A model generated the notes under the pieces. The model searched no databases, was not told the DNA's origin, and saw only the letters and a program-made list of their open reading frames with translations. The position numbers and the translations under genes are program-made. DNA of 63,856 nt, filler included, from Hausera hauseri (lineage: Eukaryota), in NCBI GenBank assembly GCA_046269625.1. It is 10 parts of 10 records of this genome, joined end to end, with 100 filler letters (N's around TTAATTAATTAA, not from the genome) between each part and the next. Parts side by side here need not be neighbours in the genome. Positions count along the whole stretch, not along the records: positions 5,602 to 15,055 come from JBJURY010374369.1; 9 more parts are not named here. One strand, 5' to 3'. Below are positions 180-45,030 of the stretch, in pieces (position 1 is the stretch's first letter; each line of letters begins with the position of its first letter).

Positions 180-3100
180 TTTGTGCTAGCTGAATTCATT
201 TTGCGCGCATTTTCGACCCAACTTTCTCTTTCATCCTTGAAGCAGCCGATTTTGTTTCTGATTAGGTTGCTATACAATGGATGATTCTATGGGTAGTTGG
301 ACGTGTTCAGTAATCCATCTGTTACCACTTGCTGCCGCAGTTGTTCGCGATTAACGTTTTTCAGTTTCAGTAAAACTATTTGTGTCACTGGCAATTATAT
401 TAATCTTACAACCGACAAACATTTGTCGGTAATGAGCTAAGTCACGACAGTGCAGCTCATACATCCGTATCTTACTCAGATCCAATACTATCTGTCCTAT
501 ATCACGTAAACTATCCTGTATGACTTCTTCTTTATTTAAAAGTACGACAACCAATCCATCAGCAATGTTCATTGACCGCATAAATTGAGCCTTACTGGTG
601 TAATCAATGTCTTTTCATTGTTACATAGGCGCACATTGAGCCGTTTTGACATTCTCCACTGTTTTTTCATAGAGAGAATTGTTTTTTAGCTTAGAGTAAT
701 CTTTTCCAAAATTTCGTACAAGCCGAGGCTCGTTTTTCCGAATTCTTATTTATGTAAGCTTTGAATATCGGAGCCTGGATAAATCGGATTGTGCGACTTA
801 ATTGTCTGACGTATACGCCAAGCTTGATGTAAAATTGCCATAGATGCCAATGAACAACGTAATTTTGCTTGGATTTATGTGTCATAAGGAGCTTCTTCAT
901 ATTTGAGTCAGGTCGGCATTGGTTAAATGGCGTGGTCGGTAACTCGTCCAGAAAGTCATGCAGTTCATCTAGTGTCACAAGAACAACTTTCATTAAGTAT
1001 CCGATTGAGCTGCTTTCTGCTGTGTGTGCTCTCGGTAGATTTCCTATTATTGCATCCAAGTCTTGTTTGTCGACTATCCATTCAAAGAAACCGTATGGCA
1101 AGGGTTGCGAACACGTCCACTCATACATGTTATTAATATCAATATACAGCAACGATGTGGTATTATCAATGGTAGCGCCAACCTGATGCTTGTTAACAAA
1201 CGTCACACTACCACGAATACTTACGTGAAACAGTCGGTACATTTCTGAATCTTGCAACAGTTCTATATCATGATCAAGTGTCATCAGGGCTGATGTTCAA
1301 CTCATTATTGGTATGGAATAAAGTTGAGTGGCTCCAACCTATCTTTCTGTAACGCTTTAGTGCAAAATGCTTGAAAAACACTGCCTAACAAGTACACATC
1401 AAGTTTTAAATTTTGAAATATATACTCCAATAGATTTGTACAGCCGAGCTCTGCCCAAAATTCCTGTGCTTTCTGATATGCATCTTCTGTGATACTAGAC
1501 CATCGCGATGGTAATTCTTCTGTCATATGAAGCCTGTTATACAGAAATATACATTTGCTACGTGGAACGTGCACAGGGATCTGTGTTGATGTTAACGGCA
1601 TATCATGCAAAGCATTTACTAGCTTTGCTAAAGATTCATTCAGAAATTGTAATGAATCAAGAAAGCTAACCTGGAAATGGTTTATACGAACAGAAAAAGA
1701 TAGGTATTTCTCCATCTTAGTAGGATTTATAGATAATTCCAAGTGTGGAAATCCATTTCTTGCCAATTTTAAAATATGGTGACAGTCATAACCTCTAAAA
1801 TTATGAAAGACCGCCGGTAGAAATGGTCGCACACGCTTTGTTAAATTACATGACCTATGTGCAGTTCTTAAGTATCGACCGGTAAAATGGTCTTGATCCG
1901 GTACAAGCTGTTGCTTTTCATCAAGCGGTAATATTTTGTGAAACATTTAACATTCATCGGTGGATGCAAAACGTAATGGTTCGTATTCATCTATCCAAAT
2001 CAGGGGTTTAGTGAAATTATTGTGATACCACTGTGCGATTTCTGCTCTTACTATTGTTTCTAAATGCTTTTCAAAGTCATGTATACAATTCTAGCCATGA
2101 AAAAAGTAATACTGGTGTTGATCAATGGCTTTTATTGGGACTACCAGCATACCGACGGCGATTGAAACATGCTTTTTGTCATATGCGTTGTGCCGTGTAG
2201 AATAGCTTAAATATCAGCATATACCACATACGCAGGACTGTCTGTTTTAGACAAGTTATGAAATCTAAGATCCTTGTTGACAGGCATTACATACCTGAAA
2301 GCATGCAAATATACAGGGCGCCATTTACATCGTATACGATTTTGGATGAACTGGTCATGGTCCATGTTCACCAGTTTGTTTAAATTTGTCACGGCCATGT
2401 AATGAAAAAAAATTTTTTTGCTATAACAGCAACAAATTTGCTAAGCGTCCGTTTCGATTCTCATTTCTATAAATTATGTCCACATGGGGGTTCTTGTAAG
2501 TCTCTTCAACCGCCAGTATTTTTAATATTGTGTCTTACCGGTAAACGTTAATTGACAGTGTCAGATTACGCTGTTCAAACACCGAAAAGGTTTTCAGTTT
2601 CATCGACATCCAACATTCATCAAAATGCCATTAGGAAAAATCCTGTCGATATTGATTTGGACTATATGCATGTTTTCTGGGAACTTGATAATATTTCAAT
2701 ACAGTCAGAATACTAAAGAGAACAGTATTCGTTATCGTCATTGTTTTGTACATTCACTACCGCCAGAGACTGTTTTAGAACTGCAGGTGTCGGCATGAAT
2801 TATTGCTCAGACAAATAAATTATGTCACTCGACTTTGTTGCAACAAATTCTAAAGTGACAATTTTTATAATTCGCCAGCCACTACCCTTTTCGGCTTAGT
2901 TGGCGATTTTTCATCAAACCTTTTGCCTACATCGGCAATATAGTTCATCTCGACGTGACAGATACCATTGTTTCCTGTCGCCTTCTACATTTTCGAATTC
3001 TGCAAGTGCATAATATTGCATTTTGCACTGTTGGAATTTCTTCACTTCAGATTCAAACCGGTTGCGTACATGGGAGGGCACATGTTTTAATTGTATTGTT

Positions 3101-5501: not shown

Positions 5502-5601
5502 NNNNNNNNNNNNNNNNNNNNNNNNNNNNNNNNNNNNNNNNNNNNTTAATTAATTAANNNNNNNNNNNNNNNNNNNNNNNNNNNNNNNNNNNNNNNNNNN
5601 N
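5502..5601. other. Artificial contig spacer
   Basis: N44-TTAATTAATTAA-N44; linker gives stops in all six frames; identical at nine places. Confidence 0.98.
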
Positions 5602-5746
5602 GAAGATAATTGTTATATAAACTTTTATAATAAACATCTTATGGATCTTACAATCTTCTTACAATCATCAAGTGATGTTGAGGTCGGGATGGTAAAGACG
5701 CGATCTACTAACAGCCGTAAAAATCAGGTTCCACTCAATCCAAACT

Positions 5747-6527
5747 ATGCTTGGTGTTGAAGTCATCAAAACTAAAAAACTATGGCCAACAAATCCCGTG
5801 TGTAATTGTTTCAACCTCCCCGAAGCAAAGTATCTCAATATGAAAGAAAAATCCTATTGTCGAACCGCTAAAGTTGATCCCGAGAATTGCATAATAGTGG
5901 CCGTCAATCTGGCATATGACCAATATAACCAAATGCAGCCAATTGAATGTAGCCAATGGAGATCCAGTATTTTATACGTTAATGACGCCTTGACACCGGA
6001 TAAATAACTACGACACCCAGGTAACCAGACTAACGGAATTACAGATAGCCAATAAGATGGACGTCCAGCTGTTCTACGCCAAAATTTGGGAAATCCTCAC
6101 AGACAAGATTGTCATCGAGGCCGATGTAATCAACATAATTTCCACTTATTTGAAATGTCCACTATATAGAATCGTAGGAATTTGTGATATTTTATATCAC
6201 GAAGAGATTCTCCGTAAATATCCAATGGATTCCTTTAACCCACGTGAGTTAACAAGATTTTACGAAACCAAAAGCATGCCATTAAGAATCACAGTAATGG
6301 TCCCATGTTTCCAAGCCTTATACCGCACATTACAGTGGACAGAAAAAATTATAGATGAGAGGACGGCGCACGAAAAGGTGCTAAAAGCACTACCTATAGT
6401 ATCTAACAAAAAGAGAAGACTAAACATGGACGAGGAGGTTTCGATAGACGGCGAAATCTATACAATGGCCGCCATCCGCTATAATGCACCATCCGGAAAG
6501 ACAATCTTTCTTTCACCGCAATCGTAA
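5747..6527 (+). pseudogene. Orphan protein family ORF-X, copy 1 (probably one disrupted gene)
   Basis: ORFs 5747-6007 and 6057-6527; C-terminal half (DILYHEEILRKY...KKRRLNMDEE...IRYNAPSGK) is clearly homologous to the minus-strand translation of 38985-39323. Confidence 0.6.
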
Positions 6528-9500
6528 ATTGAGGACACTTTCTTTGATTCCCCATCAACTTATTCAGTCTATGATTTTGATTATTTAGTTTATCCAGTCT
6601 ATGATCCTTAATTATTTAAAATTATGATAATTGACATTGTGATCGGTTCGGCTTATTGACTTTGCGAATTATTGACTTATAACTAGTTGATTTCAACCTG
6701 TGATGAGAATTATGTAGAGATACTTTATTCTTGTTTACGTATTTCATGTATGTATGGCGAATTTTCATGGTATTAACGACATCTTTATTGGCATTATTGA
6801 CAGTCGAAGAGTATAAATACGATGATTATTTGTGAACAAACTGAGACAAAAGTGCAACATTAGTATTTTTTCATGACTACTTGTAAGTGTTGTTATACTG
6901 ATTATATATTTTATTTATTTTGAATTCTTGTAATTTAGCGACTTTATAAGTAACATTAAATAACTTCATTAAGAGCTGAGACTAATTTGGCACAGATCCC
7001 GACACACGGTCGGTCCGACGCCATACTATGTAAATAAGGGGTACTTTAACTAAAACCAGTAGAAATCGTTGTACAGCCCTACAGGCTACTGCCTCCAATA
7101 CAGCACCTATAGGATAGGCGTAGGAAAGGCTTACTACATCTGCCTGACATTTTATTCGAATACGCAACAACTTTGTTGACCTTCCCACCATTTCTTACGT
7201 TTATAATAGTCTCTCCCGATCAGACTTAGTGAGGACTGAACAAATTCAGCTGGCAAGCCGAATTAAAGTACTGACAGAAGTCAAACAGTTATAGAAGTTT
7301 TAACAACAAGACGCAGTATATTGATAACCAAAGTAACGGAAATAAATAAAATGGGGACTATAAACAAACCTCGAATAGTAACAGAAATGTGAGAAGGTCG
7401 AAGTCACCTATAAATGAAGGCGGTCGGCAGAGAGTAGGTAAGAATTTAAATCTAATATGCTATACGTGCGGTCAAGGACATATAGCGAGGCCATGTCCGA
7501 ATCCGCGAAGTGTTTCATTTGTTGAACTTAGTAAAACTAGTATGATTAAAACTAATGAGAATTTATAAGCAACCTACGGTATATGGGGTGATAAAAGCAT
7601 GGTGCTTGATGTACAGGATTTATGACGATTCATTAAGAGTCAACCTGAAACTAATAATCCAAAGGTTCTGACAGCCCGGAACGAATACAAGTACAAATTA
7701 AGATTAATGGAGGTTTGTCACGGCCTTTCGGAACCAGAAACCGAATATGAACACACATTAGCCCCCCATAGACGGGTTATAATGACACGGAAGAATATTT
7801 CGGTAGTAAATAAAGAGACGGATAAAAAGGATGAACCACAAATATTGGATGAGGTAGACTTATATACAGATCCTGAACCTACAATGAGAAACAAAAGTAA
7901 AGCAACTGAAGCCGAGGCAATAGAAAAAGAATTTATGGTACCACTGATATTGAGAAAGAGGCCGAAGACTCTCGATTAAACAAAACATAAAAAACGATCA
8001 AGATCCCCAGTAACTAAAGAAAAGAGAGAAGTGGAAGAGACTGGAATCGCTCTAGGAAGCAACGTAGAACCCAATATCGATACGCCAGTCACAAAAGCAG
8101 TGGACGAAACACACGACATACGCCTGCTAAGCGTAGCGAAAATCTTCTCTGAATAAACTGAGAAATGTGATAGAATCATGTGGAAAATTAGGAAGTCGCG
8201 GAAAAATGCCCACGAACTAAGAGAAATTAGAGATTCTCCAATTAACGATTAAACGCGTAGAAACTTGAGAAAATAAACAGGCAAGTAGATATTTTCGGGA
8301 AAGAACATTTCGCTGAAACAATGTATAAAAAATTAATGTTATTAAACGAAAGAGAAACTAACGGATCAATTAAGTTATACGAGCCAGAGGAAATATCCAG
8401 AGAAATGATAGAAAAATGGAAATCTGAATTAAACTTATCGGTAAAAGTGGAATTAATACTACAGAATTATGGATTCGGAATGAGAATACCATTAAATTAA
8501 AGCGGCAAAAGCCCAAGAATTGTTAGCTATGCTAGAAGCAAATCCGAGTTTGAGACGAGTAAAACGCAACTTAAGGAAAGCGATAAATGAAATTAAGCAT
8601 ATTATGATTTCTCATTTAAGAAATAAACCAGTCTATCGACGAGACGAAAATGACCTTGAGATATTGGGTATCCATTCCAAAGACATATCGCCTCTGATAA
8701 GCATCATTGGAGTCGCTCGCAGAAAACTTAGTCGATACAAAAAGATAGAGATTAAAATCAAATTAGAGAACAAAGAGTGAAGAAATCTAACTTAAGAAAT
8801 CAGATAATGGATCTAAATAACGCAGAAAACAAGGTGATAATAGAAGCTTGTATTTTTCAGTTTGACGAATATAAAAATGAGTTCAACTATGCAAAACGGA
8901 TGATAGAACTTATAGAAGGTCCCGACGATGAGTTACAAGATTGCTATGAAACGCTAGAGAAAGCATTAATAGCTAAACCAGTAATTGCCGTCCAGTTAAG
9001 AGAATAGTCTGACCTATTGATAGAATTGAAAGTACACAATCGTATCAGCGGATTCGTGAATATTCCAGCAACATTAAAGGAAGAATTAATCGAAGTGACT
9101 CGGAATCTGAATACAATGAGGGCAGAATACGACATTCGTACACAATTTAACGAATTCCGAGAATTAAAATTTAAGGATACTAGTGAAGAAATTAAGTTGT
9201 TGAGAGATATATGAGATGATCAAAGAACCAAATTTTCGAATTAAGCAGAATACGACTTGCGACCTGTATCGAAAAATGAGAGATATCCGTACGGAAGGAG
9301 TTCAGCACTTAACAAGGAAACCCATAAGTCAAATTACTGCACTTGAAAATATTGGACATATGCCCGGACAACGAAATTTCTATACTAGAAGCAGTAAAAT
9401 TCTTACGCGACCCATCTAAATGGATGCCCAGCTCAGATCAAAAATGGCATGCAGAATTAATAGAAATAATGAAGGATCACAAAATTATTGTTGAAGAATT

Positions 9501-10254
9501 AAATTTCATAAAAAGATTAATTGAAGAAATTGAACCGGATTCTAAGACCCTAAAAAGAAATAGGCAAGCTGATACTGTTATTAGCAGAAATAATCGAAAT
9601 CAGCGACGAAAAAAGAGGCAATTACAAAGCCAGCTATTACATACTCAGAAAACGCAAATACGTATCGAACATAGAAAAGCTGAAATGTACGAGTTAATCA
9701 AAGAATTTGAAGCTTACAGAAACAAATACGCCTTTACGGAGTCAGAAATAATAAATGAGTTCGCACAAAGATAACAACGAGAACTAACCTCACAATTGCC
9801 GACCTATCAAGAAAAGGAATTATTTCAGCAGACAAACTATCCCAGCTGCTGAATTTGTTACAACACATTATGATGGGTATGGTTTCTAAACAGTACGGAT
9901 TGCGGAAGAACAAAGGAGAATGTACGAAATACGGAAACTGTCACGAAACGCGAGTCAATCACTGGACATCTCAACAATTGGTTGCGGACATCCAGAGAAT
10001 AAAAACGAACGGGAATGGAATGCATATTTGAACATTTTAGCAAAAAGAGAATCCGAGAATTCCAATCCACCTCCAAGTAACGGATCTGTACCCACATAAT
10101 CGGAAATTTAATGTGGAGATGTTCCTGGACCCGGCACTAACTGAAAGAAATCTCATTGAATTAATTAACGTAAACATGAGTGCAAAACACGCTTTACAGT
10201 GCGGTGCCAAAAATATTAATAAGGCAATACGCTAGTACTCTTAGGGCTCAACGC

Positions 10255-10491
10255 GGAGTGACATTAAAATTAAGCGTATCGTCTGAATCGATGGCCGAAA
10301 AAGTCTACGAATGCTCAACGGCTTCGACTGTAAGACATAAACAGTGGTTAGTGAGTAATGATGCCGATAACGAAATAAATTACCAACTTTACTTTAGAGG
10401 TAGGATATTAGATAAATTGGAACTATTGATTGATGTCGGAATTATTACAGGGGAAACAAATCGTGTAGTGGCTATAATTACCAACGATTAG
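10255..10491 (+). pseudogene. Ubiquitin-like domain in the retroelement accessory region
   Basis: VTLKLSV...STV...YQLYFRGRILDKLELLIDVGIITGET resembles ubiquitin [26 protein letters not shown]. Confidence 0.6.
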
Positions 10492-11169
10492 AATAAAGAA
10501 GCCACTCGTAAGGCCAGAACTGAACAATGTGTAGGAGGAGTCATGGGAGTTCGAGATGCTGCCATGTATTTTGTTTATCTACAAACCGATGGAGACAAGA
10601 AACAATATGACATAAATTTAGTTCCATTCAGTGGTCACGCGTCAACAACGATGAAACAGAAACGTCCAGTCGAGGAAAGTGCGAGAAGAAACCGACTATA
10701 ATGGAGGTTTAATTACAGAATTGAGAGAAATACCCATACTAACTCTTAATTTAGAAAACGAAGAATTAACTAAGTTTATGAAAAATTTGATACGTTTCGT
10801 AAACTACTCTGGTCTTAGAAGTGATGCATTGGAAGAAAAGGAGAGAATTATAAATAATGCAGCAAGAAAAATGAAAAATTTCCTATTCAAATAATCGAGA
10901 AACATTTTAACTGATGAAGCGGTAGCGGATAAGATCATGGTAGGAAATACCACAGAAGATTAATTAAAAAAACCCGGCGCGAGAAAATGAATTCGACAAG
11001 GCCAAGGATAGTACCTCGAGAAATAAACTGGCCGAAACTATTCGAAAAAGAGGATAACCAATTTAGACCTCTACCAACGGTAATCGAATAGAGGATGTAG
11101 TACGGAATTTACCATAATCTGGCACAAGTCTAGAAAACGACTCGAACTGGCTAATTAACTTCTTAAATA

Positions 11170-12600
11170 AGGGCCGTCACCGTACATGATTGCGATAAAT
11201 TCACACTCGGTCAGAAATATTCGCTGATGGACTTAGAATTTTGTGAAGATGCTAGAACACAAATTAGAAGAAAAAGAACAAACCTAGGTATTATATCAAA
11301 AACGCGAATTGATTTTGTTAGACGGGATAGAATGTATGCCAGTATTTTTCATTATGGACAGATGCATGGACACTTCTATAATAAAGCCAACAACCCCGCC
11401 AATCCCAGTGAATCTAGAAAGACAACACTGCAAAAGGGCTCTGGAAACTGGTAGATTAGTCTAGGATGGAATGGAACTTGAAATGCAACAAAGGAAAATA
11501 ATCAGATCAATCAAAGCAGTAGTCGGAAAATTAGATAAGCATACGCGAGTATGTACTGGGGCCGAATATGATACTGGGAAAGGGAAAGAATGGGGTGTAG
11601 TAGTAGTCGATTACTATAAAACTGAAATGAAAACGCAGAAAGCGATATTCTACAGTGTTACCAAACTCCACCGAAAACCCATAATGCTACATACAATATG
11701 GCAACTGTGCTTTTAGATGTTCAGTGGCGCTATTGGATCCACCCTCTGGAAAAGATTGTAATTTTATGAGAAATTATGAGAACCAAATTGGCACTAATAT
11801 ATCCAAATCCCGAGTTAGCATCACCTATAATTCCAATGAAAGAAGGAATTTTCGGTAGAATCACGGGTGAAGGCTTACTGACTTATGAATGCGAGAAAAA
11901 GGATGTTTCGATTAACGTAGAAGAAAAAAGATGCATGCAAGAATTTCCAATGCTCTATCAAAGTACGCCGAGACTGGTAATGCCATTTACCAGAGTTCTG
12001 TTGGCAAATTCAACGCAACCAACGATATAAAAGGAATGTCAGGCGAGTCTAGGAGAACCTATATTCAGGCGCAGTGAAACCAACTGGATAAACCTACCCA
12101 ACGGAGGACTAACCACTGCACCCAGTAAGTTGACAGAAACTAACCTGGTAAAAGTGATAACTGAGGACAAGTTTCAAGACATGATAACGAAAGGTATATA
12201 TAGACCAAGAGAAGTTGAAGCATTTAGATAACTTCTCGCTTTTCCACGCCAACATAGGCGCGAGTTGAATCGGGCTATGCACACGGTAATAGAAGTCACA
12301 CGTTATCAAGCAAAATGGGAATCACTACTTGGCGCATATCTCTATCAAAGTGTGACTACAGAAATCTTATACAAAATCTGGGGAAGATTCTTAATTTTCG
12401 GATAAGCCGCATCTGGATTTTTGGCAATTTACTTCTTCGTACAACTGGTCAAGGCCATAATTCAAGCAGTCATCAATGTATAAGAGATTTACGTTGGCAG
12501 AATTTTCATGCAAAATTTTAACTGCGATTATAACGCTTTTGATAAATTCTTAAAGTCCTTCGAAGAAAGTAGATGGAAAGGCGACGTACAACGACACGGT
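11170..12600 (+). pseudogene. Chuvirus-like envelope glycoprotein (class III fusogen type)
   Basis: VHDCDK..YSLMDLEFC; FHYGQMHGH; GRITGEGLLTYECEKKDVSINVEEKRCMQEFPMLYQSTPRLVMPFTRVL; TM region FG*AASGFLAIYFFVQLVKAIIQAVIN. These match, in order, remembered chuviral G motifs YDC..SLLD..C, HCGMHSH, GEV....KC..V......CY.ELPV.Y....FL.P..RIL and FG..SAG.IGI..I..LIK..I. Confidence 0.8.
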
Positions 12601-13229
12601 GGATGCCATAACCGTAAGCGACGAAGCAAATTGACATTCAATTATGGACGGAAAATCATTAGCTGAAATAGGCGAAGAGATGATTCAGATGATGACGAGC
12701 CTAAGGGAGGAGATGTCATTTCCAGAATAAATAGACATAAAGCATATTCCGCCATAAAACCGCCGTTGCCTATGCTACCTCCAACCGCACCCATATATGA
12801 ATATTGTGACAAACGATGAATGAGTTCATATCCAACGGAAATTTACAGAAAACCATTAAAATTTGAGGACCCTTACGAGGGAACAAAACACTGGTGTATT
12901 ATGGAAAATGCATGAAACAAGGGGAATGTCTATTCTCACCAACGCCAATCAGTTGATGATCATAGAATATTATATTCTCCAAGAATACCCCAGGTCCGCG
13001 AGAACACACGAAACCAAGAGATGTTAACTTTCAAGAACCATGGTCCCCGTAATTGCACAAAGACAGGAACATCAACCAATAATAAAGGATCAAGAAACAA
13101 AAACTACTAATGGCGTAAGACAATTAACCGATCAGCCAGCCATTTCCACAGATATTAGAATCAAGGGATATAAAGTATCGACGATAAAACAACCCAAAGT
13201 TTTATCAAATCATTATGGAACAATAATAG

Positions 13230-13570
13230 AGAGAAAGCCTTTCGCCCATGTTCGACTGGAAGACTGTGAGGTCTATGCATAATTCGACACAGAATCTGAG
13301 ATGTCATTTATCAAAAACGACGCAATATCGTTAAATCTGTGTAAGCAATTTTATTCATCACCAGCAAGAGACCCAGGCTCTGTTGGAGTTTTTGGGCAGT
13401 CAACGAGATGTAAATATACGTTGAACCCCGAAGTTCATATGATGGACAAACCTTTCATCACGAATTCTCCATAATGACGTAGTTAGCTGACTATGTAGTA
13501 TTTGGATGTGATTTAATGAGACAGCTGCCAAATTTAGCAATAGATTTCCATGCGGGAAAATTAAGAGCTC
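13230..13570 (+). pseudogene. Retropepsin-like aspartic protease
   Basis: PFAHVRLEDCEVYA*FDTESEMSFI (LxDTGS-like) and downstream VVFGCDLM. Confidence 0.75.
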
Positions 13571-14059
13571 GGACCAATAAGAGGAATAAAAACTACAAAA
13601 GACAGGAAACCAGGAGAAGTATGGATTCCGGTAGATGAAACTATTCCACTCAGACCAGAGATGTTAATTTATGCGAAAATTCGTCAAGACGATAATCAAC
13701 CGGCATACTTCGAGACAAACGAGACATTAAATCCAAATATCGTGTTCAGTAATGAATTAACTAGAGTGGTTCAGGACGGGTACCGATCAGATTAGCTACT
13801 AACGCGCCAACGCCAATTAAACGTTATGCGAATACTACCTTGAGTCACATTTATAAAGTTTCGTCAATAAAAACTGAGGAAAAACCGTATCAATGTGATG
13901 AATTTCCATCTCACGTCGAAACAAAGTTCACATCCTATCAGTCGATTATAACCAGAAACGAAGATACTGGCAGAGCAAAAGTTCTAAAACTAACGATCCC
14001 ACTTAAAAAGAAGCCTGAATCAAACGAGGATATTGATCTTGAAGAACAGAAAATACTCA

Positions 14060-15055
14060 AATGGTATCTTACACCACGCTCGTTAAGACGAGTAATAACA
14101 AAGTAAGTTGAACGCATGCTCAAGGCTGATATAATTAGACCAAGCTATAGATCTTGGCATTCATCTATACTCATGGTTAAAAAGAAAGGTTCCACAAAAC
14201 ATCGATTTTGTATTTACTACAGGGCATAAAATACCCTCATGATGAAGGATTCTCTTACATTACAATCAGTGAAAGTAGCACTAAACAGACTCTCATGTGC
14301 AAAATGGTTTACCACTTGACTTACAGTCCGCCTATTGGCAAGTCGAAGTAGAGAACGAAGACGGATATAAAACAGAATTTAAAATCCATCACGGCGTATA
14401 CGAATTCAACGTCATGCCATTCGGAATTACAATTTTACCAGCTATTTTTACGCGGATGATGAACAGACGGTTAATGGGATTAGAACATGCGCTCACATAC
14501 TTAAATGATGTAATGATTGCATCAAAATCAGAGGAAGAACATCTAAAAGATATTGCCGATACCCTCATGAGACTGGAGCAAGCAGGATTAAAATTAAACC
14601 CTAATAATTGCAAATGGGCTCAGAATTCAGTATCATACCTCGGACACAGTTTGAGAAGGAGGATCAAAGCCAGATAAATCATTATTAAACAAAATATCCG
14701 ATTGTATGGAAGCACATAATCAGAAAGAATTGAGACATTGATTAGGCTTATGTGGATATTATGCCATATATGTACCAGATAAATCGAAAATAAATGCACC
14801 TTTGTATCGCTTACTTAAAAATAGAATCAAGTTGAAATGAACAGATGTCGAACAGAAAGCTTTCGACGAAATCCTGACGTTAGCTTGCCATTTATAATTA
14901 AAACCGACCCTAGTAAAGAAGGTATTGGGTATGAATTAGCTCAAAAACGAGACGATGAAGACGATAACTGAAGAAGGCCGAAAAGAATTATTCAGTCACA
15001 AAATTAGAAACCCTAGCTGTGAAGGAAACCCTACGACATTTCAATATTTATGTTT
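14060..15055 (+). pseudogene. Gypsy reverse transcriptase and RNase H
   Basis: MLKADIIRPS..SWHSSILMVKKK, DLQSAYWQV, YEFNVMPFG, YLNDVMI (YxDD), GLKLNPNNC, YLGH, YSVTKLETLAV. Confidence 0.9.
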
Positions 15056-15155
15056 NNNNNNNNNNNNNNNNNNNNNNNNNNNNNNNNNNNNNNNNNNNNT
15101 TAATTAATTAANNNNNNNNNNNNNNNNNNNNNNNNNNNNNNNNNNNNNNNNNNNN
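15056..15155. other. Artificial contig spacer
   Basis: N44-TTAATTAATTAA-N44. Confidence 0.98.
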
Positions 15156-16320
15156 ACTGAGAATTTGGTCGCGGATTTCCTGTCGCGGTTGGACCAATAT
15201 TTTTACCGAAATTCTAAAGCTCAATCAGCCGTCTGCTGATATTCTTAGCTCTTTCAAATCCTTCGAAATCATTGATAGCATTGCATACGATACATCTAAC
15301 TTTGGTAATAAAAAATCATTCTCGATCCTTCTTTGAAGAAACCAGCTTTCCTTCACACGCATTCACTTCCTCATGTAGGCTCGAAAGCAAAGTATCGCTT
15401 GCTCCAACGTCATATAGTTTGGCCATCAAGGCGCACAGATGTACAGGGTTGGATTAAGGAATGCGTCGCCTGTCAAACATACAAAGTCAACAAACATCTT
15501 ACACAGCCGCTTTACCATTTCCCATGTACAGCACGCTTTCATACGGTCCACCTTCACCTCGTTGGACCCTTACCTTCTGATAACGGGTATAAAACATATT
15601 CTCACTACGATGAATCGTGCTACTCGCTGGCCTAAAGCCCTTACTCTCCGTTCAACAAACACTGATTCAGTAGCAGATGCCTTCATTAAAATTTGGATCA
15701 GTCGTTTTGGATCCCCACGGGACATCATAACGGACCAAGGTCCGCAGTTCCAATCGGAACTCTTTAAATCGCTTGTTAAACGCTGGGAGATATCACATTT
15801 CCATACAGCACCGTACCATCAACAATGAAATGGTCTTCTTGAAAGGTTCCATCGAACAATGAAAATTTTTTAAAAATTTTGGCAGACAATCATCGCAATT
15901 TTTCGTCCTTTCTGTCATTTGTTCTACTCGTGTGGCGCAACACTCCTTCGACCACCACGGGTTGTGCTCCAGCCGAGGCATATTTTTGGACTCCAATACG
16001 GCTCTGTTCGAACTTTCTGACCTCGACCACAATCCAACAAACGAAAACATTCGCACGGCACAGTCTCACTTTGTTGAGGTCAGCTCAGACTCGTTCTGCA
16101 GCCTATTTAACAATAAAAAATCGTACATTCCGAAGGATTTATACTCAGACAAGTTTGTATGGATGAAGGATCAATCACCTTCGTGTTTTCGACCTCAGTA
16201 TGTTGGCCCATACAAGCTACTTCACCTCTCATCTCATACAGCTATCATCTTACGTCAAGACAAACCCTACAACGTCCACATTTGGAATCTTAAGCCCGCT
16301 TTCTTCGTCGACGACAATCC
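15156..16320 (+). pseudogene. Gypsy (CsRn1-type) integrase, 3' end of an element
   Basis: NLVADFLSR; HSLPH...WIKECVACQ (HHCC); VHLHLVGPLP; WISRFGSPRDIITDQGPQFQS; HTAPYHQQ; PQYVGPYKLL (GPY/F). Same family as 30744-31715 and 52928-53523. Confidence 0.92.
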
Positions 16321-16834
16321 GGATGCCGATTTTACTTCCACCTGGACATGGCCCTCCATTTTTGGCAAGAGTCACGGTTTGGTGCAACTAGGCCTTCACG
16401 GTTTTCGTCTTTCCTTTTACCTTTTGGCCTATGTTTGTTTGGCAGCCGAACAATCCATATCAGTGTCAAATAAAATCAATATTCTTATTTAGTTGTTTAG
16501 CAGGCTACTAACTATTCTAGCTTCTAATTTTGACCCTTTGTTTCATAACTGTCGTCGAAAAGCCTGGACTAAAGTTAGAAGTAATGAATGACAATACAAG
16601 CCCAACTAAAGCATGTTGAGTACATAAAAATACCCACGGAATTTATCGGTTTTGCATAGCCCTGCAAAAAACAAAAATACGGAAGCTAACTTAAGTCCCA
16701 TAAAATTTCTGGATTTTTACGGTAAGGGATTGACATGTGTCATTATCACGATTTCATTACCATAATATCTTAATGATCATCACTAATTATCGATCTCAAC
16801 AACATTACTTTAGAACGAATTACTTTCCTATTCG

Positions 16835-16985
16835 GAATTTAATCTAAAATATGGTGGATTTCATGATGAATCTCGTACAGTTCAATTAAATCGTAGTAAG
16901 AATGCCGGATACATCAAATGTAAAATGTGTCTTGAAGATTATCAAACAAGAATAATTATCTAAGTCAGGAAGTCGATGTACCACC
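16835..16985 (+). pseudogene. ELOF1: Captured fragment of transcription elongation factor ELF1/ELOF1
   Basis: HDESRTVQLNRSKNAGYIKCKMCLEDYQTRI/NYLSQEVDV (one frameshift) vs ELOF1 [40 protein letters not shown]. Confidence 0.75.
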
Positions 16986-17169
16986 CAATACAGCAACGAG
17001 AAGGACTACCTATATTGATCGCTTCGATAATGTAGTAAAACAGAGTAATTTATCCATAGAATTTGATTACCACCAAACTGGAAAACACAGTGACACAAAT
17101 GGTTATTTATTTGTAACCGTACCATCCGGTATTTGTGTTGCTTCAAAAGACTTTAAAAGAGATTTTACA

Positions 17170-17991
17170 TTGAACAATAATATTACAATTTGTGATAGTG
17201 AATTATTAGACAAATCGGAATTTTATGAAACGCCTTCGGACCAGTTTCTCATATTAAATCCAATATTATGTATGCCGATTAGAAAAAACAATAAACAAAC
17301 GACTAATACTCCATATCAAATTGAAGAAGAGCTGATCGATAAAACTATGCATAGAAAGCATCGTCAAAACTTTTTAGGGCAATTATTGGTTGATACGAAT
17401 ACCACTTTGAATAGCAATTTGGCAGTCATTTGTGATTTGGATATTCCGTCTGATGCCCATTCTTTTACTCGTACGATTATACCCGATGATCCCTGCGACG
17501 ACTTCATATCAAACCATCCGAAGACAACGAGCCATACCGTTGCCTCACTCTACGTATCGGGACTTTCCAACGAGAAACCACTTTCCGAAGATGAGACCAG
17601 TTTGGTTGCCAATGACCACTGTAACACGTTACCAAATTCCATATTATGCAAAACATCACCTTCACCAGCACCGACGCATTCACGACCAAATACTTATTTT
17701 TCATTACCTATACTGCCACAATCCGGAATGAAACGATCACCGGATTTAGATGAAGTTTGCGATCTGTTGAAAAAGACGGATTCGGAATTGGAGAAAATTC
17801 AACAAGACGCTTTTATGGTCATTGATAATGAGGATCTCTATTCGAATTCAGTGACACCGTTTGAAGCGGAAAACCATTTACGAATTGGCGATAGTTGTGA
17901 TGATGTTCCTTTCATTGATGATGATGCATGTTATACCGATTCTTTCTATGGTTATTCGAATTATAAGATGTGGTTAATTAAACATCCATGA
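17170..17991 (+). CDS. Open ORF of unknown origin in the retroelement upstream region (possibly chimeric host fragments)
   Basis: 273-aa acidic, S/T/P-rich ORF ending just before the UBL-gag frame; no family recognised. Confidence 0.4.
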   Translation: MNNNITICDSELLDKSEFYETPSDQFLILNPILCMPIRKNNKQTTNTPYQIEEELIDKTMHRKHRQNFLGQLLVDTNTTLNSNLAVICDLDIPSDAHSFTRTIIPDDPCDDFISNHPKTTSHTVASLYVSGLSNEKPLSEDETSLVANDHCNTLPNSILCKTSPSPAPTHSRPNTYFSLPILPQSGMKRSPDLDEVCDLLKKTDSELEKIQQDAFMVIDNEDLYSNSVTPFEAENHLRIGDSCDDVPFIDDDACYTDSFYGYSNYKMWLIKHP

Positions 17992-18003
17992 CTCTCTAAA
18001 CTT

Positions 18004-21000
18004 ATGGACATATACGGAGCACCCGAACAGTCTGCGATGAACATCGGCCATCAGAGATCGGCCCTCGGCTATGCGACTCGAAGATCATCAGATTGGAAAC
18101 CTGTGCACGTCGGTGATCCGTGCGCCAAAACACGCCTCTGGCATCACTCCTCAACCCTTTCTTTTTTGTTTTTAAAAATAACACACATTTCTGCCATACA
18201 CACTAGTAACATGGATATTGCTTACACCCTCTATATGTCTCTATCCTCCTTCCTACACATTTCCGACTTTTATTTATCGCACCATGGTTCTGTGCTACAC
18301 CCGTCTGACTCACTTTCTTCATTCTCTTCTTCGATCATTCATCTCACCCTTCACTTTCACATCCTAGGTGGTTATGACCCTGATCCTTCTGCTATATATT
18401 CCTCCAAAACACGATCTGGTGGTCTCTCTGCTGACTCTGCACAATCTGCTTCTCCTAACCTTCCTTGCACAGAGTTCTTCATCGATAAAACTAATTCAAG
18501 CCTCACTTGGCTACAATTTCATTTACAATGGCTTAAAGCCAATCATATTACCGATTCTTTCTTGCGCACCAATAGCTTGTTACTTCTTCTCCCAGCAAAT
18601 ATCAAGCATCAAATCAATATTCTTGCTGATATCCTTACTTCTCCAACACCATATGACATGCTTTATGGGTTTGTTCTTCATATTACCGATTTATCGATTG
18701 ATAATATAATACAGAAGTAATTTAACGAACATGCTATAGGCAATCAAAAGCCTTCTGACTTTCTGCTAACCTCTATTTCACACCTAAGTGCTCTTGGCGT
18801 TACCCCCACCAACAATGCAGACATGATTCGTCGTTATTTCCTCTCCTACTTGCCCACTTTTATCAGAGTTCTCCTTACTATCGTTGACGACTCGACGGCG
18901 ATTGAAAAACTTGCATTATTGGCTGATAAAAGTTTCTAAATTTTACAAACTAAAAACTCACAACCCGTAGCTGCAGCAACCACGCATACTCTATCGCACG
19001 TAGACACCACTGTTTTCGCACAGCAACTACAATCAATGCAGAAACAATACGATATTGTACAACATTCAGTTTCTGCCATCACGACCCAACTAAGTAATCT
19101 GTCTATGTCTCGGAGAGGTGAGACCCGTGTATCGCGTGAGCGTAGCCTCTCGAAGCACTCATTTCGTTCTAAATCTCCTGGCAAACAAATGATCTGTTTT
19201 TATCACGATAAATTTTGTAGAAACACAGAAAAATATCTCTTGGGCTGTAAATTTTATGACGAGCGTTTTGCCATGGGCAGCCCTATCTGTATTTATCACA
19301 TAAAATTCCACTCTCTAGCCAGATCGTGTGTTCCGGGATGTAAACATTACAAAAACAACTTCAGTTTTTTTCATCTTCTCTCCCCCTCCTTCTTCTTATC
19401 ATTCATCTTCTTTTCCTCCACAATCTTCAAAAAACTAAACACGCCGCCAGATGTCACGGCACATTCTGGCATAGGCAATACCGCTCAGTCTTCTGGCCGT
19501 CTAAATACCGCCTCCGCAGTTTTTCTGTTAAAAGCTCCACTGTTCTCTAGCAATTCTCCACATATCGATTTTCTTATCGATTCGGGAGCTGCCTTTTAAT
19601 TTTTCCCTTTGTCCTTCGCCACTACATCCACTGCAGTTTCTTCTCCCCCACTTTTCACTGCAGCGGTCAACCTTTGCGAATCGCAGGTACCACGGAACTC
19701 GTTTTTACATATTCAAACTTACCAGGCAAATTTGTCTGGAAATTCCACGTGGCCAATATTAAATCGCTAATATTCGGCTCAGATTTTTTGGCCGAACACG
19801 ACCTGCTAGTTGACTGCAAGTATGGCTGTTTGCTACGTAGAGACTCCGTCGTGAACGTGAACAATTGCGTACCGTACAGCTTAACAGGCACTTCGTCTGC
19901 GAACTCATATGTGAATTTGCTAAATTGCTCGTCGGTTGATAACAACACATTTAGTAGTTTATCTATTTTCTCAATTACATCTCAAACATAAAAGTCGATT
20001 TGAAAACAATCCGTTAAACCGAATGGTAATGGTGGCAATGTCGTTCGTTCATCGCCAATCACAGTCGCCGCCTCCTCTGATAATATACTTAAATCATTTT
20101 TATCATTAGATTACAATCCCAAATCCTACATCATTTATTCTAGTTCTTGCATACTCTAGTTTAAGCGCCCATCAACAACTTATCACCACATTGTCACCCA
20201 ACACCAAAGACCTATCAGACAAAAGGTGAGGCTATTATCTCCTTGTTAATAATATTTTTTATCTGACTGATATTTGGCAGATTTGACAATGACAATTTAA
20301 ATTTAATAAATACCTGCAAACAAATAAATAACCAATTTGTAGAATAAAGTCCGGGAATGTTTGAAAAAAACAAACAAGGCAAAATTTTAATTAGCATGCA
20401 ATTATAAAACAATAGTTTTGTAAAGACGGTCTAACGGCGCAATTGTATGGTGCCGCCTCGAAGCAGAAAATCGGGGCCCGCCTATGCGCCCGACGCGCCG
20501 GCAGCGGAAAACCCGGCCGTGCCCAACCGAATGGGCCGGAGGGAAACAGTCGGCTCGGGCCCATACTCCTCGTAGACGAAAAGCCGTGGAATTAGAGTTT
20601 AACGAACTCGAAAAATCTGGTATCATCCGGAGGTCAAAATAACCATGGGCTTCACCATTGTATGTAGTAGCAAAAAGGACGGTACTTTTCGACAATGTGG
20701 CGACTACCGGCAAGTAAACAATCTAACCATCATGGATGCTTACCCATTAACGCTCATAAAAGACATCCTGTATAGTCTTAACAACACCAATACGTATCCC
20801 GCAATATATCTGCATAAAGTTTACCATCAAATTACCGTTGCACCCGATGACATTCCAAAGACTGCTGCCATAAATCCATTTGGCCTTTACGAATACAACT
20901 TTATGCCATTCGGTTTAGGTAACGCAGCCCAAACCTTTCAACACCACACCGACACCGTTCTCTCAGGCCTTGATTTTGCTCATCCTTACATCAGTGACAT

Positions 21001-21630
21001 ATTAGTTGCCTCCAACTCCGTCAAACAACACTATGAACATCTCCAAATTATTTTTCACAGACTACATCACAGCAACTTACAAGTTAACTTCTCCAAGTGC
21101 AACTTATTTTAGAAACGTGTCAATTTCTTAGGCCACATCATCACTCCTCTTGGCCACTCGCCACAACCTGATCGACTACAGCAATTGAAAAATGTAATAC
21201 TACCAACGACCACTACAGATATGAGGAGTTATCTTGGCACACAACATTTCGTCCATAAATACGCACCTCATTGCTCTGAGCTTACAGCACCTTTCGCACA
21301 CCTCTCATCTGGAAGCAAAAAAGAGTTAATCCAATGAACTTCCGATTTAATGAACAAATTCTATCATTTACGTGAAGGCCTAAAAACCGTCGAAATACTG
21401 GCCTACCCAAAACCCGACGCGGAGCTAATACTTACCACGGATGCCTCTACCCCAGCTACTGGTGCAATACTACACCAGATTTTCAACGGCGTCGATGAAC
21501 CTTTGGAATTTTACTCTCGAAAACTCACACAACCAGAAAGCCGATATTCAAAATTTTATCGAGAGTTACTAGCCATAGTTCTGGCATTAAAACATTTCAA
21601 GCATCTACTCTCTCGTCCATTTATCACCCA
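18004..21630 (+). mobile_element. CsRn1-type Gypsy copy A: UBL-Gag-PR-RT-RNase H, decayed
   Basis: UBL ending LHFHILGG (GG 18367-18372); gag QKPSDFL..LEKLALLAD; duplicated CFYH/CIYH..C...C nucleocapsid motif; FLIDSGA protease; RT (DAYPL, YHQI, FMPFGL.NAAQTFQ, PYISDIL); RNase H LTTDAS, RELLAIV. Confidence 0.92.
20244..20565. repeat. 322-bp insertion (probable solo LTR) with 5-bp target-site duplication inside pol
   Basis: CTCCT at 20239-20243 and 20566-20570; removing the insert and one repeat restores VRLLSPRRRKA, matching copy C VRPLSPRRRQA; termini TGT...ATA. Confidence 0.8.
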
Positions 21631-21881
21631 TGTTAGAGTTGAGATATGGGACGAAACGCGGAGTCTGTGAAACACCATTTATTCCAACTTCATGTTGTAC
21701 ATTAAAACGGAGTTCTCCTTCGTCGAGTTCGTGATTTGACCGCTTGGTGATTTCTTCCGATTGCATTGTTGTCCAAATTCTAAATAAAAAAATGTACCTC
21801 CTTTATTTGGTAAAAAGAAACAAATTTTTAATTTATACAATTTTATTTTGATTTTTTGTTGGCGTTTATTTAACGGAAACA
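21631..21881 (-). repeat. LTR of another element, truncating the RNase H of copy A
   Basis: Minus strand: purine tract AAAAGGGG then TGTTTCC...AATAAA...CTAACA; RNase H homology stops abruptly at 21630. Confidence 0.6.
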
Positions 21882-23747: not shown

Positions 23748-24040
23748 TTCACAATACTATCATGTATTGTGTCTTATACCTGTTGTATTCACAATACTAT
23801 CATGTATTGTGTCTTATACCTGTTTTATTCACAACAGAATTATGTGATATGTCTTCAACCTGTTTCATTCACAATAGTAACACTTGTCGTCTCTTATAAC
23901 TGTTTCATTCACAGTGGTATCACGTATTGTGTCTTATTATTCTTTCATTCAAAATAGTATCACCTGTCGTGCCATACAAACATATCATTCACAAAAGTAT
24001 CAATGTCGTGTCTCATATAACTGTTTCATTCACAATGGTA
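23748..24040. repeat. ~40-bp minisatellite
   Basis: About seven degenerate copies of TTCACAATACTATCATGTATTGTGTCTTATACCTGTTGTA. Confidence 0.85.
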
Positions 24041-24094
24041 TCGATAATTATTGAAGTTATTTGTATTTATTGATTTTTTTTTTTAAATCCCCAG

Positions 24095-25000
24095 AGCGAT
24101 GTTGTGAAAGACAGTGCTTCAAATGTTGCTGATGAAGTTAAAGATGCTGTTGGCAAAGTCGGAGATGTTGCGTCAGATGTTGCAGGTGCTGTTAAAGATG
24201 CTGTTGGCAAAGTTGAAGACCTTGCGTCGGACGTTGCAGGTGGAGTCAAAGATACTGTAGGCAAAGTTGGAGATGTTGTGTCAGATTTTTCAGATGGGGT
24301 CAAAGATGCGACTGGTAATGTCGGCGATGTTATTGTAAGTGCTGCTGATGCCGTTAAAGATGCTGCAGGAAATGTTGGAGATGCCGTTAAAGGTGTCGTA
24401 GAAAATGCTGGTGATACTATCAAAGATGTTGTTGCAGATGCTGGAGATTCTATCAAAGTTATAGGAGATGTTGGAGATGCCGTCAAAGATGTAATCGGAG
24501 ATGCTGGAGATGCTATAAAAGACGTTGTGGAAGATACTGGGGAGGCTATTAAAGATGTCGGAGACTCTGTGAAAGACGCTGCAGAAGATACCGTTGATTC
24601 TATCAAAGATGTTGTAGATGATGCTATTGGGAGTCTTGGGGAAGGTTTAAGTGAGTTAGACGACAGTCTGAGTGACCTAGGAGACAGGTTGAAAGACGGA
24701 CTGCAAGACCTGAATGACCTCTTTCGTGATCCTTTTGACGATTTCAGCGATCTGGAAGACAGTAATATCGCAGCGATGATGTTGGCATCCGTCCTCGGGA
24801 CCAGCAATCAGCAGTCGGGTCACAAAGGTGTCACTCTTGATAGAAGTAATCCCTACAACATCATGCCCATATCACAGCCGCCATTATCATCAAGTGGTGC
24901 CAGCAACAACAACGACCTTGGTGTGGCTTTGCTCACGATGGAACACGCTTTGGATACTGGGATCGATGGCGGACTTGATTTAAACTTTCAGTTGAGATGA
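24095..25000 (+). CDS. Terminal exon of an acidic 11-mer-repeat (LEA/apolipoprotein-like amphipathic helix) protein
   Basis: Polypyrimidine tract plus CAG acceptor ending at 24094 in phase 0; intact ~300-codon frame with repeats like DAVKDAVGKVG and DAIKDVVEDTG; AATAAA ~27 nt after the stop. Confidence 0.8.
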   Translation, partial: SDVVKDSASNVADEVKDAVGKVGDVASDVAGAVKDAVGKVEDLASDVAGGVKDTVGKVGDVVSDFSDGVKDATGNVGDVIVSAADAVKDAAGNVGDAVKGVVENAGDTIKDVVADAGDSIKVIGDVGDAVKDVIGDAGDAIKDVVEDTGEAIKDVGDSVKDAAEDTVDSIKDVVDDAIGSLGEGLSELDDSLSDLGDRLKDGLQDLNDLFRDPFDDFSDLEDSNIAAMMLASVLGTSNQQSGHKGVTLDRSNPYNIMPISQPPLSSSGASNNNDLGVALLTMEHALDTGIDGGLDLNFQLR

Positions 25001-34940: not shown

Positions 34941-36069
34941 AATGTCACATAAATCGGGTGTGCAATGTCGTACATAAGACACGGGCGCGCCAAAAATCCC
35001 TGAGTTGTAATGGCTGGCCTGAGCATTTTGTGCTTCATTATTTATAACAGAAGTATGAATAATGAGATAAGATGACTCACCGGAGTAATCCAATTCCGAA
35101 GGTTTGCTGTATTTCCTGTGCAGTAGACTACTGTACCCTAATTCGCCTGTTGTTGTAGTTTTTTGATCCGGTTCACGCATACGTTCCCAACGTGTTTTGC
35201 ACATAGCGCTTTGAATCATATTTGAACATAAATCTTGACGATCTGCCGATTTCGCTATATAACAATCGTGTTTAAAAAACGTGACTGATTTAGGGAACAT
35301 TATTGGCAGGACTAATTATTCTCGTAAAATATTTAGTTGCCGAATCCACAATGAACCGCTTCGATGCGTTTTGAGCAAAATCAATGAGATCATTCGATAT
35401 TTCGTTAAGGTCTATTTTGGTCAAATTTATGTTAGAATACTGTAGATTATATACATGAACTGCAGCCAAAACGGCATCCAGTGTGTCGAGATGATAATTC
35501 ACACAGACAGCAGTGCCGTTATTTGAGAGTATTTTAATTCAGTGACCATAAGTAATGGTCATATTTCCTCTTTTAAATCTCTCGCCGAACTCACCGAAAC
35601 TGGCGGCATTTTCGCATATGGAAGTCAAAAAATGAACCGAAAATATTAAACACAGTCGATTATCAAAACTCACTTCTTTGGTTAAAGTCGATTTTTAGTT
35701 CATGTATTTTCCAATTAACACATTTGCGTTTTCAACTGTCTTTCAACAATACACCATAACTCTGCTGGAAAATGTCGGAGTTTACCGGAAAAAGTGGTGT
35801 CGTATGATATGAAAAGTTTTTAAGAGTTTGAAGAATTTTTAACGGTTTCTATGGATACCTTTGTGAGGATTTTCGACGTAAATAAGCGTATCAAAATTAA
35901 GATAGAAATCATATTTAAAAACATTTGGCGGGAAATACTTTAGAAAACATCTAAGTTTATGGTAGAAAATGCTTTGGCCAGTAATCCAAGCTGCAACATA
36001 AAAGTTGAACGCTTCAGATAAAGAGCATTTTTCTTTACCGAATCACATTGGTAGTCAAGGTACAACGTG

Positions 36070-44954: not shown

Positions 44955-45030
44955 TATTTATCTCTGGTACAAAAAATAATTTTGTTTATAACACAAACAA
45001 AACAATTAACTATTATTATTATTATTATCA

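What the first reader, a model, noticed from the sequence alone, without database searches (positions are those of the whole stretch)
7350..15055. Gypsy element with a chuvirus-like glycoprotein between gag and protease
Seen: order on one strand is Zn knuckle, ~3.5 kb accessory region, glycoprotein with Cys motifs and C-terminal TM, then PR-RT-RH. Established: env genes normally follow integrase; chuviral glycoproteins are known as captured env in BEL/Pao elements of insects; errantiviruses use baculovirus F-type env. Inference: an independent acquisition of a negative-strand RNA virus fusogen by a Ty3/Gypsy element in a non-canonical upstream position, i.e. a candidate new endogenous retrovirus-like lineage.
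Basis: partly seen in the sequence, partly recalled or inferred. Interest (0 to 1): 0.8.

Follow-up and report, generated by a model that had tools for sequence, protein, structure and literature searches.

The report
Decayed Burro-like envelope-carrying retrotransposon
This is a broken, dead copy of a retrovirus-like mobile element whose virus-type membrane-fusion gene sits between its capsid-protein and enzyme genes, an order already described for the giant Burro elements of planarian flatworms, to whose family it likely belongs.

Summary
On one contig (5602-15055) the + strand carries a zinc knuckle (7458), about 3.6 kb of accessory sequence, a chuvirus/gB-type glycoprotein (Pfam PF24664, E 4e-23) with a C-terminal membrane anchor, then protease, RT and RNase H; the contig ends before integrase. 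The copy is dead (134-195 stops per frame, about 130 codons missing from env). The novelty claim fails. The closest glycoproteins are not viral but lie in intact single-ORF polyproteins ordered gag-(ubiquitin-like, Bcl-2-like)-env-protease-RT-RNase H-integrase; env and RT trees both place the window with these, and grouping with a named chuvirus glycoprotein is rejected (AU p 0.0009). That layout is published: planarian Burro elements (Arkhipova and Yushenova 2019) and GAG-ENV-POL elements of flatworms, nematodes and bryozoans (Chary and Hayashi 2026). The window has a likely ubiquitin/SUMO-like domain where Burro has one. So: an inherited env in a Burro-like lineage, not a fresh capture. Host phylum and LTRs could not be determined. 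Side findings: an exonuclease-like ORF upstream of gag, and up to seven protease domains in relatives. This scan noted the same gene order before in another genome.

The parts
5955..6527 (+). Accessory ORF remnant; 5955-6191 is homologous to the DEDD/RNase T exonuclease ORF that lies 3' of pol in two relatives. Probably belongs to the same element family (inside a long LTR, or the 3' end of an upstream tandem copy; inferred)
   Evidence: tblastn E 2e-5 and 4e-4, 38.5 bits against a shuffled maximum of 21.6 in 100 shuffles; RNase_T Pfam hits on the relatives' ORFs; no Pfam hit on the window piece itself
6988..7002 (+). Candidate primer-binding site (a TGG start after an AT-rich stretch); weak, one of five TGG candidates
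   Evidence: not matched to any tRNA
7458..7496 (+). Gag zinc knuckle (nucleocapsid), non-canonical spacing; capsid domain not detected upstream
   Evidence: (E 0.033)
7500..10230 (+). Accessory region, broken, charged and helical-looking pieces (E+K+R+Q 33-37%), no family assigned
10240..10488 (+). Likely ubiquitin/SUMO-like domain, at the place where Burro and the intact relatives have one
   Evidence: Atlas hits to Rad60-SLD/ubiquitin clusters at 0.87-0.90; relatives' profile iE 0.0065; no Pfam hit; hhalign probability only 2.9%
10489..11160 (+). Pre-env region; relatives carry a Bcl-2-like domain and an internal signal sequence here, neither recognisable in the window
11164..12500 (+). Env: chuvirus/gB-type class III fusion glycoprotein, in three frame pieces, about 130 codons missing near 11690-11770, C-terminal membrane anchor about 12394-12475
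   Evidence: fold of an intact relative
13232..13560 (+). Aspartic protease remnant, catalytic motif not intact
13586..13870 (+). Protease-RT linker homologous to the relatives' linker (Burro has a dUTPase-like domain here; not confirmed)
   Evidence: no Pfam hit in window or relative
14060..14660 (+). Reverse transcriptase, frameshifted, catalytic motif not intact
   Evidence: RVT_1 E 2.3e-22; 48-54% identity to relatives; tree
14661..15055 (+). RT connection and start of RNase H, cut by the contig end

Best explanation
The contig holds a dead, 3'-cut copy of a Ty3/gypsy element with the order gag knuckle, accessory region, gB-type env, protease, RT, RNase H, likely a member of the Burro-like lineage that inherited this env together with its pol. 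How the working form would act (inferred from intact relatives and general knowledge of retroelements, not tested): one long RNA is read as a single polyprotein; an internal signal sequence threads the env ectodomain into the ER and the C-terminal anchor returns the chain to the cytosol; host signal peptidase and the element's own protease(s) free Gag, Env and Pol; Env trimers act as a class III fusogen that lets particles enter neighbouring cells (germline or stem cells); the ubiquitin-like and Bcl-2-like accessory domains would act on host ubiquitin and apoptosis pathways. Shown: domain order, decay, kinship of env and RT with single-ORF env-before-pol elements. Inferred: Burro membership, processing, fusion, infectivity. 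This copy itself can make no protein beyond short fragments.
For: HMMER over 1.84 billion representatives: 179 hits, and of the 8 at E<=1e-30, 6 carry a protease downstream of env in the same ORF; the other 2 are a 203-aa fragment and a protein that ends just after the anchor. The one named chuvirus G among 20 looked-up hits scores far lower (E 3e-11). L002 has one 3703-aa ORF with capsid-like region, two knuckles, two ubiquitin-like domains, env, proteases, RT, RNase H, integrase. Relatives align colinearly over the window from env to RNase H. Env tree: window inside an 18-row clade at SH-aLRT 98 (132 rows); 91/88 in the careful 36-row tree; AU rejects window+chuvirus G (p 0.00085) and window+BEL/Pao-type env (p 3e-81). 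RT tree: window joins all 9 env-before-pol RTs at 95/87 against 17 other RTs. Short motifs read from the Schmidtea env rows of the eLife supplement occur in 9 of 17 and 7 of 17 clade proteins against 1 of 135 outside. Burro layout as published matches: knuckles, long accessory part, Ubi2/SUMO-like, BCL2, env, PR. Identical unitigs of run X1 tile env-spacer-protease.
Against: No named Burro or GyDB sequence was in any tree, so the link to Burro is indirect (post-hoc motifs, by-eye comparison and domain order); the window's own env does not keep those motifs. The careful env tree gives no starred set holding the window. The window's RT branches outside all nine relatives while its env nests inside them, on long branches. 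Bcl-2-like domain, capsid, signal sequence, integrase and LTRs are not seen in the window. The ubiquitin-like call is moderate: a Bcl-2 profile gave a misplaced hit of similar score inside env that also beat the shuffles, and a single-sequence fold failed (pLDDT 32). Host unknown. The fold supporting class III is of a relative and of low confidence (pLDDT 50, TM about 0.13-0.22).
Confidence: 0.8

Rival explanations
1. A separate GAG-ENV-POL lineage: same gene order and same env family, but a pol lineage distinct from Burro (a deep sister group, or env gained by exchange between elements), possibly in a host outside planarians.
For: The window's RT is sister to all nine env-before-pol RTs, not nested, while its env nests within the core clade; identity to the nearest env is only 33-35%; GAG-ENV-POL elements are reported not to be monophyletic (PMC13524379); host not determined.
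Against: Decay lengthens branches and can pull a row to the base; RT still joins the env-before-pol set at 95/87; the likely ubiquitin-like domain and the exonuclease-like ORF are shared with the same relatives.
Confidence: 0.14
2. One reading: an independent capture of a negative-strand RNA virus glycoprotein by an env-less gypsy element.
For: The protein family is a viral fusion family (PF24664) and the relative's fold matches chuvirus and mononegavirus G best; virus sampling in the tree is thin (one named chuvirus).
Against: Nearest envs are retroelement-borne, about 90 bits above the named chuvirus G (153 versus 59 bits); AU test rejects the chuvirus sister; env and RT point to the same set of elements.
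Confidence: 0.03
3. Chimera: nested insertion, deletion or misassembly that joins a gag, an env and a pol of different elements.
For: No capsid domain before the knuckle; the accessory region has no match in relatives over most of its length; a 3'-type accessory ORF lies upstream of gag; unitigs of X1 are short and branch at many points.
Against: No repeats or LTR-like pairs inside the contig; A-rich strand skew is continuous from 7000 to 14700; env-to-RT spacing (706 codons) is within the relatives' range of 572-1857; identical unitigs span 9532-10804, 10871-11905 and tile 11916-13642; intact relatives have the same order in one ORF.
Confidence: 0.03

Closest known systems
Burro/GYPSM1 giant Ty3/gypsy elements of planarians (Arkhipova and Yushenova 2019, PMC6431247, section read; Grohme 2018 and Jurka 2007 seen only as cited there)
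   Same: Gag knuckle(s), long accessory region with a Ubi2/SUMO-like domain, env related to mononegavirus-type fusion proteins between gag and protease, then PR, linker, RT, RNase H; accessory ORFs outside the main ORF; decayed copies are reported in Dugesia japonica.
   Different: Only one knuckle and no capsid, Bcl-2, MATH, BIR or ankyrin domain detected in the window; size and LTRs unknown; host unknown; a DEDD exonuclease-like accessory ORF is not mentioned in the section read.
GAG-ENV-POL 'errantiviruses' with HSV/gB-type ENV (Chary and Hayashi, eLife 2026, PMC13524379), especially the Schmidtea 'Platyhelminthes_C1a' group; nematode elements of Sacco et al. 2022 (title and citation only)
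   Same: Ty3/gypsy pol, gB-type env placed before pol. The Schmidtea env rows in supplementary file 2 share motifs with the window's nearest relatives.
   Different: Those are intact copies; this one is dead. The nematode rows read in the same supplement part look unlike this env by eye. Cysteine-bridge type could not be scored on the broken, partly deleted env.
Anakin: BEL/Pao elements with chuvirus-derived glycoprotein in mosquitoes (Dezordi 2020, PMC7642597, passages read)
   Same: Same glycoprotein superfamily (PF24664) used as env by an LTR element.
   Different: Different superfamily of pol; a BEL/Pao-marked env (P0057) is rejected as sister of the window's env.
Bdelloid rotifer LTR elements with DEDDy exonuclease ORF3 (Rodriguez 2017, PMC5408684, passages read)
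   Same: An exonuclease accessory ORF downstream of pol, as in L001 and L002.
   Different: There it replaces env as ORF3; here the relatives have both an upstream gB-type env and the exonuclease ORF. Homology between the two exonuclease sets was not tested.

Membership tests
Ty3/gypsy (Metaviridae) | Pol order protease-RT-RNase H-integrase | tested here: met
   PR-RT-RH in the window; integrase follows RNase H in P0018, P0022, P0036, P0067, P0167, P0170, L001, L002; the window contig ends before it
Ty3/gypsy (Metaviridae) | RT groups with Ty3/gypsy RTs against named outgroups | tested here: inconclusive
   15 of 16 RT hits carry gypsy-type RNase H families, but the tree held no named references or BEL/copia outgroups
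Ty3/gypsy (Metaviridae) | LTR pair, PBS, PPT, target-site duplication | not testable with these tools
   Contig ends inside RNase H; no repeat pair; no genome held
GAG-ENV-POL gB-type errantivirus (Chary and Hayashi) | env between gag and pol on the same strand | tested here: met
GAG-ENV-POL gB-type errantivirus (Chary and Hayashi) | Env of HSV gB/class III type with C-terminal anchor | tested here: met
   PF24664; anchor; relative's model hits herpes gB, thogotovirus GP and GP64 in PDB (best E 1e-4) and chuvirus-like G in BFVD (best E 2e-21), low-confidence model
GAG-ENV-POL gB-type errantivirus (Chary and Hayashi) | Intact ORFs, multicopy | tested here: not met
   This copy is broken; divergent related sequence is abundant in run X1 (5745 contigs laid at 85%). 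The criterion is that study's inclusion filter, not a lineage trait
Burro | Env in frame within one gag-env-pol polyprotein | tested here: inconclusive
   Cannot be read in the broken copy; met in relatives (L002 3703 aa, P0167 4844 aa)
Burro | Ubi2/SUMO-like domain in the accessory region before env | tested here: met
   Moderate support: Atlas, profile; Pfam and fold negative
Burro | BCL2-like domain before env | tested here: inconclusive
   No hit at the expected place in the decayed window; weak Bcl-2 hit in relative P0024 (E 0.001)
Burro | MATH, BIR, ankyrin, Smc-like domains | tested here: inconclusive
   None found in the window; content varies among Burro elements; ankyrin in relative P0167
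Burro | Giant size (internal region up to 25 kb, long LTRs) | not testable with these tools
   9.4-kb contig only
Burro | Sequence kinship to named Burro elements | tested here: inconclusive
   Indirect: motifs from Schmidtea env rows enriched in the window's clade; no named sequence available to align
Burro | Planarian host | tested here: inconclusive
   FANCD2-like exon search found no scored relative; Atlas blank for the large host ORF
Anakin (BEL/Pao with chuvirus G) | BEL/Pao pol and env grouping with BEL/Pao-borne glycoproteins | tested here: not met
   Gypsy-type pol families; AU p 3e-81 against grouping with P0057

The most novel reading that the evidence does not exclude
The element is a deep-branching member of a much wider Burro-like lineage that reaches beyond planarians into another animal phylum, and that lineage combines an in-frame gB-type env with a DEDD exonuclease accessory gene (here placed upstream of gag, perhaps inside a very long LTR) and, in relatives, arrays of two to seven aspartic proteases in one polyprotein, a multi-protease processing scheme I did not find in print.
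Probability: 0.25. Interest if true: 0.5.

Novelty: new member of a known kind. Interest (0 to 1): 0.2.

Why it matters
It adds a decayed, fairly divergent member to the Burro-like group of envelope-carrying retrotransposons and shows, through unnamed metagenome relatives, that the group is diverse and has intact members. It does not document a new capture of a viral fusogen. What could matter more lies in the relatives: multiple proteases per polyprotein and an exonuclease accessory gene bear on how a single gag-env-pol polyprotein is processed, a question that is open for Burro. The window's own copy is a poor experimental handle.

Tried and rejected
No genome is held for the window, so copy structure, LTRs and integrase could not be read. 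Word-based homolog search with the env C-terminal part found nothing (698 candidates); the full HMMER search did. Viral contigs: 55 pattern matches, none a relative. Host identification failed: Atlas blank for the 924-aa host ORF, no Rfam match, no scored hit for the FANCD2-like exon. One sequencing run holds the stretch; no RNA holder listed; X1 may be the source sample, so it checks assembly only. Gag capsid profiles of 3-4 relatives found nothing on the contig. Bcl-2 profiles hit only misplaced sites (11420-11563 inside env; 6012-6143), rejected. A chromo-shadow-like look of 10510-10650 (my recall, by eye) got no Pfam hit and the fold of 10180-10701 failed; dropped. Troyka (PMC12440569, abstract and introduction read) was considered and gave no link. 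The very high depth at 12655-12768 in X1 overlaps a low-complexity acidic-coding stretch and was not treated as a finding. A third AU test (window with beetle env P0035) was started and not finished. Sacco 2022 and Grohme 2018 are not held. Rows left out: 22 of 153 env rows covering under 80% of the profile; P0016 from the RT tree (short match); only 21 of 150 hits plus 3 cluster members were scanned with Pfam and 20 were looked up for names.
Full report
Setting. The window is a chain of short contigs joined by 100-base N/linker spacers; the finding lies on one contig, 5602-15055. No genome is held. The integrase-like pieces beyond 15156 are on another contig and cannot be assigned to this element.

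Observation. Six-frame reading and Pfam confirm the order on the + strand. A zinc knuckle lies at 7458-7496 (weak, E 0.033). A glycoprotein matches PF24664 Monjiviricetes_fusion at E 3.6e-23 over about 11770-12490, RVT_1 matches at E 2.3e-22 and RNase H weakly up to the contig end. With profiles made from relatives, the N-terminal part of the glycoprotein appears at 11164-11665 in two other frames and a protease remnant at 13232-13533. The membrane anchor is the top hydrophobic stretch, at about 12394-12475. The copy is dead: 134-195 stops in each frame of 7330-15055, several frameshifts, catalytic motifs of protease and RT not intact, and about 130 codons missing from env. No capsid domain, integrase or repeat pair is found on the contig.

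Is it one element? There are no LTR-like or target-site repeats inside. The A-rich skew runs unbroken from 7000 to 14700. In the one run that holds the stretch (X1, possibly the source sample), identical unitigs span 9532-10804 and 10871-11905 and tile 11916-13642 with overlaps, though they are short and branch often. The distance from env anchor to RT motif, 706 codons, lies within the 572-1857 of four relatives. The same run holds many divergent relatives of the knuckle, env and pol parts (5745 contigs laid at 85% likeness).

Relatives. HMMER over 1.84 billion representatives gave 179 hits. Of the 8 best (E<=1e-30, 31-35% identity), 6 have a protease downstream of env in the same ORF. Among 21 hits scanned with Pfam, 10 have env before protease or RT, 1 has env after integrase, 1 carries a BEL/Pao marker, and 9 show env only at that threshold. 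Of 20 hits looked up for names, one is a chuvirus glycoprotein (E 3e-11), one cluster is a beetle genome protein and one sits in a bacterial MAG; the rest are unnamed. A metagenome scan gave two loci: L002 has one 3703-aa ORF with a capsid-like region, two knuckles, two ubiquitin-like domains, env, two proteases, RT, RNase H and integrase, and both loci have a downstream ORF with an RNase T/DEDD exonuclease hit. Neither shows an LTR pair.

Origin of the env. In a 132-row tree of the C-terminal env part (131 of 153 rows kept) the window sits in an 18-row clade (SH-aLRT 98) in which every row with pol context has env before pol. A careful 36-row tree keeps this clade at 91/88, unstarred. AU tests reject pairing the window with the named chuvirus G (p 0.00085) or with the BEL/Pao-type env (p 3e-81). 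Independently, the window's RT joins all 9 env-before-pol RTs at 95/87 against 15 RTs found by an RT-only search and 2 other RTs of the window, as their sister on a long branch. So env and pol came together from an ancestral element; a fresh viral capture is not supported. Limits: few named viruses and no named retroelements were in the trees.

Accessory region. Most of 7500-10230 has no family. The frame at 10180-10488 draws ubiquitin/Rad60-SLD clusters in the Atlas (0.87-0.90; all ten best family hits in one clan) and a weak hit from the relatives' ubiquitin-like profile (iE 0.0065; 0 of 57 shuffled sets as high). Against it: no Pfam hit, hhalign 2.9%, a failed fold, and a misplaced Bcl-2 hit of the same strength that shows such scores can mislead. 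I rate it likely. Upstream of gag, 5955-6191 matches the relatives' exonuclease ORF (38.5 bits, shuffled maximum 21.6 of 100), so the left part of the contig probably belongs to the same family, either within a long LTR or as the tail of a tandem copy.

What is known. [quoted passage not shown] Chary and Hayashi 2026 (PMC13524379; abstract, Results parts 1-4 of 5, Discussion part 1 of 2, one Methods section, parts of supplementary files 1 and 2 read; figures not seen) report GAG-ENV-POL Ty3/gypsy elements with gB-type env in Nematoda, Bryozoa and Platyhelminthes, and gypsy elements with chuvirus-like env in arthropods; they cite Sacco 2022 for nematodes (not held). The six Schmidtea env rows in their supplement read by eye like the window's nearest relatives, and motifs taken from them occur in 9 of 17 and 7 of 17 clade proteins against 1 of 135 outside (two further motifs: 4 versus 2, and 2 versus 0). 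The motifs were chosen after seeing both sets and are not kept in the decayed window, so this link is indirect. Earlier notes of this scan record the same order in another genome; I had reached the papers before reading them.

Mechanism. Shown: anatomy, decay, kinship. Inferred for the working form: a single polyprotein whose internal signal sequence (a hydrophobic stretch just before env in relatives) and C-terminal anchor place Env in the ER with Gag and Pol in the cytosol; cleavage by signal peptidase and the element's proteases; fusion by a class III trimer; spread between cells; accessory domains acting on ubiquitin and apoptosis pathways, as the Burro paper also proposes without test.

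Verdict. Real feature, correctly seen, already-described kind. It works like Burro and likely is a Burro-like element (0.8); strict membership is unproven because host, LTRs, size and a tree with named elements are missing. Interest 0.2. The part worth pursuing is in the relatives (two or more proteases in 10 of 15, up to 7; one search found no paper) and the open host question.

Noticed in passing
window 5955-6527 (+) and 38988-39323 (-): Two divergent copies (35% identity over 113 aa) of an ORF whose N-terminal part matches the DEDD exonuclease ORF found 3' of pol in L001 and L002; the second copy sits at a contig end next to a FANCD2-like gene.
   Followed up: partly
P0167, P0020, P0017, P0022, L001 2-10282, L002 97-11208: Intact relatives carry several aspartic protease domains in one ORF: 10 of 15 examined have two or more, up to 7 in the 4844-aa P0167, most with a catalytic motif. 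One literature search for multi-protease LTR elements returned 0 papers.
   Followed up: partly
P0018 (HBK71150.1): A complete env-before-pol retroelement polyprotein is deposited under a Flavobacteriaceae metagenome-assembled genome; likely eukaryotic contamination.
   Followed up: no
window 37439-37813 (-), with ORFs at 35940-37011 (-): FANCD2-like host gene with long exons (Pfam E 1.7e-8).
   Followed up: partly
window 691-1946 (-) and 44631-52827: Polinton/Maverick-like pieces: type B DNA polymerase, dUTPase, a TBP-like gene and an integrase; two adjacent contigs at 45.5-52.8 kb are inverted copies at about 86-93% identity.
   Followed up: no
window 39376-44073 (-): Very long open frames (940 and 624 aa, one stop between) of a helical, spectrin-repeat-looking protein with no Pfam family above cut-off and no Atlas hit.
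   Followed up: partly
window 24074-25000 (+): 308-aa frame of 11- and 18-residue acidic amphipathic repeats (33- and 54-nt units), preceded by a 40-nt tandem repeat at 23748-24000.
   Followed up: no
window 15156-21700 (+), 30700-33500 (-), 52928-57600, 58927-63856 (+): Four further decayed gypsy-type elements without a detected glycoprotein; the last has gag, knuckles, a protease-like motif and a linker like the one here, then a coiled-coil region, with no RT on the contig.
   Followed up: no
window, nine places (e.g. 5502-5601, 15056-15155): The window is a chain of ten short contigs joined by 44 N + 12-base palindromic linker + 44 N, so neighbouring contigs are not shown to be adjacent in the genome; the integrase-like pieces right after 15156 belong to a different contig.
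   Followed up: yes
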